NCBI RefSeq assembly: GCF_009914755.1
Contig: NC_060938.1
Reading direction: 5' to 3' (one strand)
From: the human T2T-CHM13v2.0 reference genome, Homo sapiens
DNA: 64,000 nt
In this document: positions 17,780 through 35,692 of the stretch, piece by piece
Layout of the letters: the number at the start of each line of letters is the position of its first letter
Position numbering within the stretch: position 1 is the stretch's first letter
The notes under the pieces: generated by a model
What the model was told of the DNA's origin: nothing
The model's input: the letters and a program-made list of their open reading frames with translations, nothing else
Databases searched by the model: none
Program-made: the position numbers and the translations under genes

Positions 17780-17948
17780 TCAGAGCCTGCTAACATCCAG
17801 TTGTGGGAAGAGCAGCAAGCAGTACACCAGGAGCCACAGGAAGAGAATAAAATACATCATATCCGGCTGCTGGACAAGCTGTGTCAGGGAGTCACTCTGC
17901 GGGCTGTGGCTCCCCAGTGACATGGCTTCTCCTGAGCTGTTGGCCTTC
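17780..17948 (-). CDS. CLMN: Calmin exon 13, coding part (169 nt; C-terminal transmembrane anchor, TGA at 17782-17780)
   Basis: ctgtag|GAAG acceptor; KANSSGEA...MMYFILFLWLLVYCLLLFPQLDVSRL*; exons 2-13 total 2927 coding nt, fitting a ~1000-aa protein once exon 1 is added. Confidence 0.96.
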
Positions 17949-18859
17949 CTACAGAAGAAACACAGAGGAAACGCAGTTACCAAGCAGGTTCCCAGGAAAG
18001 TGGACCCCACCCAGTGCTACCCGTCTCTCCCCGGCCCCCACTCCCCGCCTGAAGACCCGAAGGCTCCCCAGCACCATGTCCAGGTAGGCCCCACACTGTG
18101 TGTACTGGCCCAAGGCAGTGCGTCGGGCCATCCAGGCAGCCCCTCGAGCTTTTGCACGTACTCCGTTCATCTCCATAACATCAGGTGAGAGGAGGTGGCA
18201 GCCCCATTCTGCAGATGGACACACTGAGGCTTTCGGGGTGGAGTGACTTGCCCAAGGCCATGCAATTAACTTGGCGACAGAGAGGGCGCCTAGGCCAGGT
18301 CTCCTGGGACACCTTTCTTGATGCCACAGTGCTCTCAGAGAGTGACACGGAGTTAGATACTGATCGCTTGCTGCTGTTTGTTAGTAACGCAGGGGACCCC
18401 ATAGGTCATCTAAGGGATGAAGTGTCCCTAATAGCAGATCATTTTAAATCATCTATCAGAAAGAAACAAAGACCTCTCCCATTCCCCACAGTTTTGTTTT
18501 GGCTTTGGAATATTACCTTTAAAATAATTACTAGATTTGATTTCAGTCAGATTTACCTTCCTGCTTTTATTTTATAGGTGGTAGTGTTAAAATGTCATTT
18601 CAGTTTTGCCTGGCGGATCATAGGGAAGCCCAGAAGGTTTTGCCTGGGGCTGGGGCCTCTGCTTGGAGCTGCATGTAGAGAAGCCTGCAGTGTAAGCCTC
18701 TTAGGGTGGTTTCGTGCGGTGTAATGGAGATTACGAGAGGCTAAAACCACTTGTCCCAGAACTATCTCCTGATAGCAGGAGCGAGGGGCAGGGTGGGATT
18801 AAACATCTGCCACAGTCTACATACTGAATGATAAATACCCACATGATGGTCTTCTTTAA

Positions 18860-19036
<177 letters not shown>

Positions 19037-19538
19037 TAAAGGTAATAAATGCTCAATGTAGACAACTGAAAACACGACTGCATTTCTCAACTTTACAGGT
19101 TCTATTTTCAACGCCTCTATCTCATAAGAGCAAAAAGGATTATTTTCCTATGAGCATATCCAGCCTGGTGGAAAACTTGAATTAGTATTTCCATTTCATG
19201 GCAGGGGAAAGGAGCTGTCTTGCTTCTTTTTTAGCAGCCAGAGGGATGGGGTTCTAATGACCACACTCTTGGGTGTTGGGTAATATTCAGACAGAGGCTT
19301 CCGATTCCAGTAATCTAAATCCTTCCAAGCCAATTCAAATCTGTGGCGAGTAAATAAAATTTTTTAAAAATAAAAACATAATAAAGCAACTCTATGACTT
19401 CAACAGGAATGGGGACGTCTCAGAATTGTAAGAATTTGAGACGTTTTTCTGGTTTCCTATGTTTTAAATGGGCAGGTTTCCAGCAATTCAGCAACATTAG
19501 GCCAGGCCAACAGTTCTCCGACAGCAAGAAATACTTTC

Positions 19539-19631
19539 ATAGACATCCTGGCATGTTTGCTTTCCCTCTTCATGTCTGCTCTGATGCCATAAAACTGTAA
19601 AATCAGCTCAGTAAGCTTCTGAGTATTGTAC
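19539..19631 (-). other. CLMN: Cryptic or fossil in-frame cassette exon 12b (93 nt; YNTQKLTELILQFYGIRADMKRESKHARMS) with GA donor
   Basis: CTGAC branch point, pyrimidine tract and ctgcag| acceptor; stop-free 31 codons in the phase 2-2 slot between exons 12 and 13; followed by gaaagt (gtaagt with one change). Confidence 0.7.
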
Positions 19632-20064
19632 CTGCAGTGGCAACAGGGAATGGACAGGCGTCAGGGGCTACAGCATTCACAGGGGCCACACAGCCTCACA
19701 AGACCACCACCTCTTCTCCTGCCTGGCCGTCCCTTTGCTAACTACCCTATACCACTAAACCACCCTATACTCTATACCACTCATTTAAACACAGCTGCAG
19801 GCTCAGAACCCAGACCCGTCTTTAAACTGACTCATTTTCGGAACCGGGCCCTAACCATCAGTGTTAATTAATATCTACTTTTCCTTTCTACTCATATTCA
19901 ATTTACATCATTTTCTCTGGAATAGTTATTTTCTTGCATTATCCCAAATTATTAATACTGTTATCAACAAAGCAGTGGGAGAATAACCACCCCTGTAAGG
20001 CAGGCTGCAGAATGTAAAAACATTTTATTACTACCCCCACAAAACCTGAAGTAAAGCCACCAAC

Positions 20065-20135
20065 CTGGTTAATATTCGGTTTCTTCTGTCATCCAGATCT
20101 GCTGCGTTCCTCAACTGAACATAGCTAAAATGATC
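20065..20135 (-). CDS. CLMN: Calmin exon 12 (71 nt; DHFSYVQLRNAADLDDRRNRILTR)
   Basis: ctgtag|GAT acceptor, CAG|gttggt donor; phase 0-2. Confidence 0.92.
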
Positions 20136-20751
20136 CTACAGTGAAATTTATAAACAAAAGCCCCCGCAACCCAATTAGTAAAGATGAAATCTCTGAAACA
20201 GAAGATAAAACGATTTTAAACACACAAAGCCGAGCATGCCGGGCATTTCTCAATACCGCCAGCGTCTAGATCCAAAATCAAAGTGCTAAACAATATACAT
20301 TCCTCTACCTCCTCCCCTAAGCCCCTCCCTTGTGAGTGCGAGAGACCCCACCACCCGGAACCCGGATTGGGGTGTGCTGCTCCGGGTTCTAACACATCTG
20401 CTACTGAGCACGTGCCACTGTCCATCGGACCTTGACTCATGTTGCACCTCTGTCTCTGAACGTGATCCTTCTGGGTGCGCGCGGGGTCCAGGTGAGGCGT
20501 TTTGGGTGCGTTTTTATAGCAAGGAGGCCTTTGGGCTTTAAAATCCTCACTTTATTTACATCTCTTATTGCCCAAACCGGATATCCGATCGGACTGTGCT
20601 TAATGATAAGGTTCCAATCTGCTTGTCTTCTATCCAAAAGTATAGCTGTTGCATGCCAGTAATTTCAAAGCTCTGGGCTGGGGAGGAGGAAGGATGGAAA
20701 GGAATTGATTAGCAGGGGCCGTGCGGAAAGAGAAGAAATTCACATACTAAC

Positions 20752-35609: not shown

Positions 35610-35692
35610 GGCTTCCAACTCCGGAAAACGTTCTAGAAACTGTGCCACGTAAGTCATGATAGACTGCTCGTCTGGTGTGTCAACCATGATGT
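35610..35692 (-). CDS. CLMN: Calmin exon 8 (83 nt; DIMVDTPDEQSIMTYVAQFLERFPELEA)
   Basis: gacag|AC acceptor, GCC|gtatgt donor; CH2 end motif PDEQSIMTYV. Confidence 0.96.

What the first reader, a model, noticed from the sequence alone, without database searches (positions are those of the whole stretch)
19530..19670. Hidden 93-nt in-frame CLMN cassette exon whose donor reads GA instead of GT
Seen: on the minus strand intron 12 reads ccCTGACgcctgtccattccctgttgccactgcAG|GTACAATACT...ATGTCTAT|GAAAGT. The 93 nt between the AG and GAAAGT are stop-free and fit the phase 2-2 gap between exons 12 and 13 exactly. They would insert YNTQKLTELILQFYGIRADMKRESKHARMSM just before the transmembrane anchor. 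GAAAGT differs from the consensus donor GTAAGT only at the invariant +2 position. Recalled and unverified: the longest mouse calmin isoform carries a very similar 31-aa insert at this position. Inference: this is either a real mammalian exon switched off in the human or primate lineage by one donor substitution, or a rare GA-AG intron.
Basis: partly seen in the sequence, partly recalled or inferred. Interest (0 to 1): 0.85.

Follow-up and report, generated by a model that had tools for sequence, protein, structure and literature searches.

The report
Annotated alternative calmin exon, misread donor
The stretch is a real alternative coding exon of the calmin gene, conserved across placental mammals and already in RefSeq's predicted human transcripts, and its apparent GA donor has an ordinary GT four bases further on.

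Summary
The exon is not hidden. RefSeq models XM_054376718.1 and XM_054376719.1 carry it as 19535-19631, 97 nt. They join it to an AG acceptor four bases inside the last exon (17944, not 17948). That gives 97 - 4 = 93 nt, in frame.

The cassette occurs in 44 of 159 retrieved calmin proteins, from ten placental groups including human isoform X1. It is as conserved as the membrane anchor. The lineage-loss reading falls.

The GA-AG reading is unlikely but not excluded. GAAAGTAT is the GA variant of the full U1 consensus. A reporter with such a site was spliced at both +1 and +5 (PMC6280755). A GA-AG intron in ITPR1 was misannotated as GT-AG (PMC4176328). Junction reads would settle it.

The parts
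19535..19631 (-). Alternative penultimate coding exon of CLMN, 97 nt as RefSeq draws it. It is G plus 32 codons: YNTQKLTELILQFYGIRADMKRESKHARMSMK.
   Evidence: XM_054376718.1, XM_054376719.1; sequence and translation. It is identical to human isoform X1 (P0065) except at one residue.
19632..19664 (-). 3' splice region of the cassette: CTGAC branch-point-like motif at 19664-19660, a pyrimidine-rich tract, and AG at 19633-19632.
   Evidence: The acceptor scores 11.5 bits, the 63rd percentile of 311 real acceptors, and ranks first of 153 AG sites in intron 12.
19531..19538 (-). Composite 5' splice element GAAAGTAT. The RefSeq GT donor is at 19534-19533.
   Evidence: The GA register matches 8 of 11 positions of the U1 consensus and the GT register 6 of 11. 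The GT donor AAA|GTATTT scores 1.1 bits, the 1st percentile of 308 real donors.
19543..19544 (-). Another GT (GAT|GTCTAT). It would give an 87-nt exon in frame with the normal acceptor. Some non-NCBI gene models in other species use the equivalent boundary.
   Evidence: -3.8 bits. Class d proteins: P0069 Myotis and P0079 Galemys read ..HARM+KA.., and the voles P0099 and P0101 read ..HARL+TG...
17945..17950 (-). Tandem acceptors of the last exon, tAG|GAAG|GCC. The normal AG is at 17950-17949, so the exon starts at 17948. The second AG is at 17946-17945, so the exon starts at 17944.
   Evidence: The normal acceptor scores 10.5 bits (51st percentile) and the shifted one 3.0 bits (6th percentile).
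17780..17948 (-). Coding part of the last exon. The hydrophobic anchor MMYFILFLWLLVYCLLLFPQL lies at about 17860-17798.
   Evidence: PMC10849733 (passages) reports that the transmembrane segment is needed for ER localisation.
20065..20135 (-). Exon 12, the upstream constitutive partner. It ends in phase 2; its donor is CAG|GTTGGT.

Best explanation
This is the known alternative penultimate coding exon of CLMN (calmin). When it is skipped, as in NM_024734.4, exon 12 joins the last exon at 17948.

When it is included, a 32-residue peptide replaces one lysine, a net gain of 31 residues. The peptide has a hydrophobic LTELILQFYGI core followed by a basic tail. It sits on the cytosolic side, 27 residues before the tail anchor of this ER-actin tether.

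The in-frame product is most likely made as RefSeq draws it. Cleavage occurs at the GT at 19534-19533, giving a 97-nt exon. The exon is ligated to the second AG of a tandem acceptor at 17944, so the four extra bases are cancelled by four lost bases.

The donor is weak and the shifted acceptor is weak, which fits an exon that is mostly skipped in humans. That would explain why the site looks like a consensus donor with a wrong +2.

Shown: the exon, its annotation, its conservation, the splice-site letters and the products of each junction. Inferred: which junction is used in human RNA, the U1 docking, and what the insert does. My best guess for the insert is a juxtamembrane interaction module that alters partner binding or the geometry of the tether.
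For: RefSeq has the exon in 2 of 6 CLMN models, with a GT donor and the acceptor at 17944. The translation equals the public 'calmin isoform X1 [Homo sapiens]' at 1004 of 1005 in-window residues.

Of 159 retrieved calmin proteins, 44 carry the cassette. They come from primates, rodents, a lagomorph, carnivores, artiodactyls including a whale, perissodactyls, pangolins, bats, a eulipotyphlan and afrotherians.

Mean column conservation of the insert is 0.90. The CH region scores 0.94, the anchor 0.93 and the large disordered exon 0.71.

Three read-through models continue ..MK+VFL.. (P0070, P0072, P0074). The codon after Lys is therefore GTN, which places a GT right after the Lys codon in those species. 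Three models continue ..MSMK+EGQ.. (P0006, P0066, P0071). That tail arises only from the 97-nt exon joined to the normal acceptor, as in the human reconstruction.

All 308 training donors were GT (302) or GC (6); none was GA. The cassette acceptor is the best AG in the intron.

Mouse clmn exon 13 is an RT-PCR-validated alternative exon. [quoted passage not shown]
Against: The GT donor scores only 1.1 bits and ranks 41st of 121 GT sites in the intron. The shifted acceptor scores 3.0 bits against 10.5 for the normal one. By these scores a 97-nt exon should mostly join the normal acceptor and shift the frame.

The RefSeq models are Gnomon predictions. As I recall, Gnomon admits only canonical splice pairs, so it could not have drawn a GA-AG junction even if that is what cells make.

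In muroid rodents the residue after ..LSM is T or I. No codon for T or I can supply the AG needed 4 nt inside the last exon.

I saw no human transcript evidence. The structure model was too poor to support any statement about the insert (mean pLDDT 33.6).
Confidence: 0.6

Rival explanations
1. The in-frame inclusion mRNA is made by a true GA-AG intron. Cleavage is at TAT|GA (a 93-nt exon) with ligation to the strong normal acceptor at 17948. The RefSeq +4/+4 model would then be the 'false canonical' rendering of that junction.
For: The GA register matches the U1 consensus at 8 of 11 positions, against 6 for the GT register. Its intronic 8 bases, GAAAGTAT, are the GA variant of the fully complementary site.

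In PMC6280755 (section 5 read) such a GA site was spliced at +1 when an SRSF7 enhancer was present. It was additionally spliced at +5 when both enhancers were present. The same paper found three natural GA 5' splice sites at -4 and +6 nt from a primary GT. Here GA lies at -4.

PMC4176328 (passages) shows an ITPR1 GA-AG junction misaligned to a nearby GT-AG and so misannotated in GENCODE. It also cites conserved GA-AG introns in FGFR genes.

This junction uses the 10.5-bit acceptor rather than the 3.0-bit one. Muroid proteins fit cleavage at this same position.
Against: GA donors are extremely rare: 0 of 308 in my training set and three in the survey of PMC6280755. A canonical pair exists that gives the identical protein. 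Models in lynx, mouse lemur and horse use the downstream GT (P0006, P0066, P0071, P0073).
Confidence: 0.25
2. Inclusion acts mainly as an anchor-removing switch. The 97-nt exon joins the normal acceptor and the frame shifts. Calmin then ends ...MSMKEGQQLRRSHVTGEPQPAE without its membrane anchor, giving a soluble protein. This concerns which product dominates and can coexist with either junction model above.
For: The normal acceptor is far stronger than the shifted one, 10.5 against 3.0 bits. The product is computed. The same product is modelled in Lynx (P0006, P0066) and Microcebus (P0071). Calmin lacking the transmembrane segment is soluble (PMC10849733). RefSeq has three further anchor-less human models with alternative terminal exons.
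Against: The frameshifted tail is 18 residues in human and about 60 in lynx and mouse lemur, so it is not conserved in length. Of the 44 cassette-bearing proteins, 24 are in-frame with the ..K+A.. junction and 7 are in-frame muroid forms. Only 3 are frameshifted. Those counts reflect what annotators preferred, not transcript abundance.
Confidence: 0.3
3. The exon was functional in other mammals and was silenced in the human or primate lineage by a GT to GA change at the donor.
For: The human 'select' transcript skips the exon.
Against: In 31 of 44 cassette-bearing proteins the insert ends in Met-Lys (ATG AAR), so G-A occupies that position from afrotherians to primates. The muroid state is therefore the derived one. 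Human, marmoset and mouse lemur models all include the exon. The insert is not degraded in human: the frame is open and human differs from the mammalian majority only at Cys to Ser within the insert.
Confidence: 0.03

Closest known systems
RefSeq predicted CLMN isoform X1 (XM_054376718.1 / XM_054376719.1; protein P0065)
   Same: Same exon, same acceptor and same protein. It is identical at 1004 of 1005 in-window residues.
   Different: It has a GT donor and a 4-nt-shifted acceptor in the last exon. It is a predicted model, not a curated one.
Mouse Clmn alternative exon 13 of NM_053155 (PMC5389685)
   Same: It is an alternative internal exon near the 3' end of the same gene, validated by RT-PCR in mouse kidney. 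[quoted passage not shown] Rat and other murid proteins carry the homologous peptide.
   Different: That exon 13 is this cassette is my inference from exon counts. The junction residues differ in muroids (..LSMT+GTN.. against ..MSMK+AN..), so the splice architecture there is probably different. I had no rodent DNA.
GA 5' splice sites beside a canonical GT (FGFR1-3, ITPR1; PMC4176328, PMC6280755)
   Same: The GA sits within a consensus-like U1 site a few bases from a GT (-4 here). The canonical and non-canonical alignments differ by a 4-nt slide, as described for ITPR1.
   Different: In those genes GA use was shown by sequencing of transcripts. Here nothing shows it, and the canonical alternative costs only one base of difference.
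Tandem splice sites a few bases apart (PMC6280755 for donors; NAGNAG-type acceptors recalled)
   Same: Both a second donor and a second acceptor lie 4 nt from the first. PMC6280755 reports secondary GT sites preferentially at -4/-3 and +5/+6 of a primary GT.
   Different: Here a 4-nt shift at the donor would have to be paired with a 4-nt shift at the acceptor of the same intron to keep the frame. I found no description of such pairing for CLMN.

Membership tests
Annotated CLMN alternative exon (RefSeq isoform X1) | Coordinates and strand coincide with an annotated coding exon | tested here: met
19535-19631 on the minus strand is coding in XM_054376718.1 and XM_054376719.1.
Annotated CLMN alternative exon (RefSeq isoform X1) | The encoded protein equals the deposited isoform | tested here: met
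   It is identical to P0065 at 1004 of 1005 in-window residues. The one difference is S in P0065 against N in the window, at residue 949.
Conserved protein-coding cassette exon | Homologous peptide in orthologues, with coding-type conservation | tested here: met
   44 of 159 retrieved calmins carry it. Insert conservation is 0.90 against 0.71 for the large disordered exon. Only 1 of 3 frames is open. Nucleotide-level tests such as dN/dS were not possible because no other vertebrate DNA was available.
U2-type GT-AG introns flanking the exon | AG before the exon, GT after it, and AG before the downstream exon start used | tested here: met
   AG is at 19633-19632, GT at 19534-19533 and AG at 17946-17945. 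The donor and the shifted acceptor are weak, at 1.1 and 3.0 bits.
U2-type GT-AG introns flanking the exon | Transcripts show that junction (...ATGAAA-GCCAAC) | not testable with these tools
The only evidence is at the level of gene models.
Non-canonical GA-AG intron | GA at +1/+2 in a U1-complementary context next to a canonical GT | tested here: met
   TAT|GAAAGTAT matches 8 of 11 consensus positions, with GT at +5/+6. This is the geometry reported in PMC6280755.
Non-canonical GA-AG intron | Transcript sequence that only the GA junction explains (...TCTATGAAG-GCCAAC) | not testable with these tools
   No transcript data. The two readings encode the same protein, so protein databases cannot decide.
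Lineage-specific exon loss by donor mutation | Other lineages have GT where human has GA | tested here: not met
   31 of 44 cassette-bearing proteins end the insert in Met-Lys, which is ATG AAR, giving G-A at that site. Only muroids depart from this, and their DNA could not be read.
Lineage-specific exon loss by donor mutation | Human no longer includes the exon | tested here: inconclusive
   [quoted passage not shown] I saw no human reads.
Exonised repeat | The exon lies in a transposable element or has copies elsewhere in the genome | tested here: not met
   No masked repeat overlaps it; the nearest is at 18889-19044. The peptide finds only its own locus in the whole genome.

The most novel reading that the evidence does not exclude
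In most placental mammals the in-frame calmin insert is produced by a conserved GA-AG intron. It rides on a U1 site whose GT at +5/+6 is a second cleavage point. Every annotation pipeline has redrawn the junction as a canonical pair slid by 4 nt, as happened for ITPR1. Muroid rodents later turned the GA into an ordinary donor. That released the last exon's first codon from Lys and made inclusion efficient.
Probability: 0.22. Interest if true: 0.5.

Novelty: already known. Interest (0 to 1): 0.3.

Why it matters
Calmin tethers ER tubules to actin, and its short tail anchor decides where it sits (PMC10849733, passages). A conserved 31-residue insert next to that anchor is a plausible regulator of the tether. 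So is a frameshifted variant that loses the anchor. Published functional work appears to use the 1002-residue form only.

For annotation, the locus is a clean test case. Two junction models give the same protein and differ by one base in the mRNA. Read aligners that favour canonical sites could hide a GA-AG intron here. For the genome scan itself, the lesson is that a consensus donor with a wrong +2 carries its own GT at +5/+6.

Tried and rejected
- **Paralogue or retrocopy search.** The 32-residue peptide matched only its own locus in the whole genome. There is no processed copy that could have recorded the junction.
- **Repeat origin.** No masked repeat overlaps the exon.
- **Regulator motifs.** There is no TGCATG or GCATG within 19100-20064. 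One ACTAAY lies at 19186. Counts of short degenerate motifs were not evaluated further.
- **Amphipathic helix.** The maximal hydrophobic moment was reached by 632 of 2000 shuffles, so it is not significant.
- **Structure.** AlphaFold2 on a 31-sequence alignment gave mean pLDDT 33.6, with the insert below 50. I did not use the model and ran no fold search.
- **Pfam.** Only CH domains were found. There was nothing in the insert or the tail.
- **Original calmin papers.** PubMed ids 11386753 and 12670712 are not held. The FGFR GA-site paper PMC152907 is also not held. I cite them only through other papers' passages and reference lists.
- **Paper searches.** One search returned mostly word-start matches to 'calming'. 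One search did not force the gene name and gave nothing relevant. Searches found no paper that describes the CLMN junction. mention the gene only in lists or references.
- **Deeper phylogeny.** None of 31 sauropsid calmins (P0019-P0049) shows the insert. All were at most 949 residues because of the length filter on the query. The two marsupial hits are truncated.
- **Mouse itself.** No cluster representative is from Mus, so the mouse statement rests on the paper and on other murids.

Full report
**What is in the sequence**

On the minus strand the window reads ...ccCTGACgcctgtccattccctgttgccactgcAG|GTACAATACT...ATGTCTATGAAAGTATTTCTT.... The coding sequence up to the end of exon 12 is 2840 nt, which is phase 2, so the frame fits. 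Only one of the three frames of the exon is open.

**What the annotation says**

RefSeq lists six CLMN transcript models in this window.
- The 'select' transcript NM_024734.4 joins exon 12 (20065-20135) directly to the last exon at 17948.
- Two Gnomon models, XM_054376718.1 and XM_054376719.1, contain a coding exon at 19535-19631. They start the last exon at 17944, four bases inside it.
- The donor these models use is the GT at 19534-19533 (AAA|GTATTT).
- The last exon begins ctgtAG|GAAG|GCCAAC, which gives two AGs four bases apart.

So 97 - 4 = 93 and the frame is kept. The two mRNAs differ in one base, the third position of the Lys codon: AAA against AAG.

A third combination is the 97-nt exon with the normal acceptor. 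It shifts the frame and ends the protein at ...MSMKEGQQLRRSHVTGEPQPAE, before the membrane anchor.

**Is the exon real and conserved?**

I ran three protein searches.
- The large exon as query gave 49 calmins of at most 949 residues. Two of them carried the insert.
- A 48-residue window around the insert of the jaguarundi protein P0016 found 32 of 32 candidates. All were placental calmins. One was 'calmin isoform X1 [Homo sapiens]' (P0065, 1033 residues).
- The C-terminal 129 residues of P0065 found 135 proteins among 160 candidates, of which 120 were listed.

Of the 159 proteins stored, 44 carry the cassette. They come from primates, rodents, a rabbit, carnivores, artiodactyls and a whale, perissodactyls, pangolins, bats, a desman and three afrotherians.

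In an alignment of 31 in-frame inclusion forms, the mean fraction of sequences sharing the commonest residue was as follows:

| Region | Conservation |
|---|---|
| Insert | 0.90 |
| CH region | 0.94 |
| Anchor | 0.93 |
| Large disordered exon | 0.71 |

The exon lies in no masked repeat. Its peptide matches nothing else in the human genome. P0065 equals the window's translation at 1004 of 1005 in-window residues.

A mouse study validated 'clmn (NM_053155, exon 13)' as a JMJD6-dependent alternative exon by RT-PCR in kidney. [quoted passage not shown] That exon 13 is this cassette is my inference: the human skipping form has 13 exons, so an internal exon 13 must be the extra penultimate one.

**The lineage-loss reading**

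In 31 of the 44 cassette-bearing proteins the insert ends in Met-Lys. GA is therefore the widespread state, present in afrotherians, laurasiatherians, primates, a rabbit, a marmot and a beaver. It is not a primate lesion.

Three read-through models continue ..MK+VFL.. (alpaca P0070, black bear P0072, horseshoe bat P0074). The next codon is therefore GTN, which puts a GT immediately after the Lys codon in those species too.

Three models continue ..MSMK+EGQ.. (two lynx entries, P0006 and P0066, and mouse lemur P0071). That is the frameshift product of a 97-nt exon joined to the normal acceptor. A horse model (P0073) also breaks after the Lys codon.

**Splice-site strength**

I trained simple position weight matrices on 308 donors and 311 acceptors of 'select' transcripts. 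These came from 20 stretches of chromosome 14. The donors were 302 GT, 6 GC and none other.

| Site | Sequence | Score (bits) | Standing |
|---|---|---|---|
| Cassette acceptor, 19631 | ...CACTGCAG\|GTA | 11.5 | 63rd percentile of real acceptors; best of 153 AGs in intron 12 |
| RefSeq donor, 19535 | AAA\|GTATTT | 1.1 | 1st percentile of real donors; rank 41 of 121 GTs in the intron |
| 87-nt donor, 19545 | GAT\|GTCTAT | -3.8 | below all 308 real donors |
| Last-exon acceptor, 17948 | ...CTGTAG\|GAA | 10.5 | 51st percentile |
| Shifted acceptor, 17944 | ...GGAAG\|GCC | 3.0 | 6th percentile |

Weak scores do not forbid use: the constitutive CLMN exon at 35610 has a donor of -0.5 bits in the same call. 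They do fit an exon that is mostly skipped. They also imply that a 97-nt exon would tend to join the normal acceptor and shift the frame.

**Why the GA reading cannot be dismissed**

The RefSeq register matches at 6. Its intronic eight bases are the GA variant of the fully complementary site.

PMC6280755 (section 5 read in full) tested such sites in a reporter.
- The GA site needed the strong SRSF7 enhancer and was then spliced at +1.
- With both enhancers present it was also spliced at +5, that is at the GT at +5/+6.
- In RNA-seq the same paper found three natural GA 5' splice sites lying -4 and +6 nt from a primary GT (passages). In CLMN the GA lies at -4.

PMC4176328 (passages) describes an ITPR1 GA-AG junction that aligners moved to a nearby GT-AG at the cost of three mismatches in a 4-base stretch. 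That error entered GENCODE. The paper also cites conserved GA-AG introns in FGFR genes. Here the same slide would cost a single mismatch.

Gnomon, as I recall, accepts only canonical pairs. The existence of the RefSeq models therefore does not tell the two junctions apart. CLMN is not named in the main text of either survey, and their supplements were closed.

**Muroid rodents**

Seven muroid clusters carry the insert as ..ARLSMT+GTNSSGEA. They are rat, Arvicanthis, Peromyscus, Meriones, golden hamster and Phodopus, plus Mastomys, which has I in place of T.

Muroid skipping forms read ..LNR+T+GTNSSGEA in 9 stored proteins from Apodemus, Onychomys, Acomys, Chionomys, Sigmodon, Lemmus and Scotinomys. 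In Cricetulus and Nannospalax the residue is N instead of T.

No codon for T, I or N ends in AG, so the +4 acceptor cannot exist there. The same T in both forms is most simply explained if that residue comes from the last exon. Since these are Gnomon models, the donor there is presumably canonical.

The muroid state is the derived one. The I in Mastomys and the T-versus-N contrast among hamsters are cross-species comparisons and leave some doubt. I had no rodent DNA to check.

**What the insert may do**

Calmin is an ER-actin tether. Its short transmembrane segment is needed for ER localisation and keeps it out of the nuclear envelope. Deleting that segment makes the protein soluble (PMC10849733, passages).

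The insert lies 27 residues upstream of the anchor. It has a hydrophobic LTELILQFYGI core followed by a basic stretch (7 K+R, 3 D+E).
- No Pfam family matches it.
- The hydrophobic moment is not unusual: 632 of 2000 shuffles reached it.
- The AlphaFold2 model was unusable, with mean pLDDT 33.6.

My best guess is a juxtamembrane interaction module. This is inference only. RefSeq also has three anchor-less human models with alternative terminal exons. Variation around the anchor is therefore a recurring feature of this gene.

**Verdict**

The exon is real, conserved and already annotated. The 'hidden exon' and 'primate loss' claims fall. The annotated GT-AG junction with a paired 4-nt shift is the more likely route to the in-frame protein (about 0.6). 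A GA-AG junction remains possible (about 0.2 to 0.25). One base in junction reads would decide, and no tool here could supply those reads.

Noticed in passing
window 19625-19627 (minus strand; second codon of the insert): The public human isoform X1 protein (P0065) has Ser at residue 949, where this assembly encodes Asn (AAT). Most other placental sequences also have Asn there. It is the only difference in 1005 compared residues.
   Followed up: partly
window 20154-20192 and 20209-20677: RefSeq models XM_054376720.1, XM_054376721.1 and XM_054376722.1 end in alternative terminal exons between exons 11 and 12. They encode calmin without the membrane anchor.
   Followed up: no
window 20135 (exon 12 acceptor) and 35610 (donor): Two constitutive CLMN splice sites score at the bottom of the trained range. 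The acceptor ...TTTCACTGTAG|GAT scores -0.4 bits and the donor GCC|GTATGT scores -0.5 bits.
   Followed up: no
P0073 (horse, UniRef A0A5F5PTQ3): This model carries about 33 extra residues (DLGYWNGKPL...LLKKR) between the cassette and the last exon. That suggests a further exon or a retained piece of the intron in that model.
   Followed up: no
P0078 (Smutsia gigantea): The model reads ..MSMK+IFLAVGELDDL+ANNSGEA. The codon after Lys is Ile, not Val, so the GT after the Lys codon may be absent in this pangolin. The model then joins the last exon at the shifted position.
   Followed up: no
P0117 and P0119 (Mustela), P0093 (Galeopterus): The skipping forms read ..TR+R+ANNSGEA, with Arg in place of Lys. 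No Arg codon ends in AG, so the shifted acceptor should be missing in these species. No in-frame inclusion form from them was among the retrieved cluster representatives.
   Followed up: partly
P0069 and P0079 (Myotis myotis, Galemys); P0099 and P0101 (Myodes, Microtus): In these non-NCBI gene models the insert is two residues shorter (..HARM+KA.. / ..HARL+TG..). This corresponds to the GT at window 19544-19543 joined to the normal acceptor. It is a third in-frame way of drawing the same junction.
   Followed up: partly
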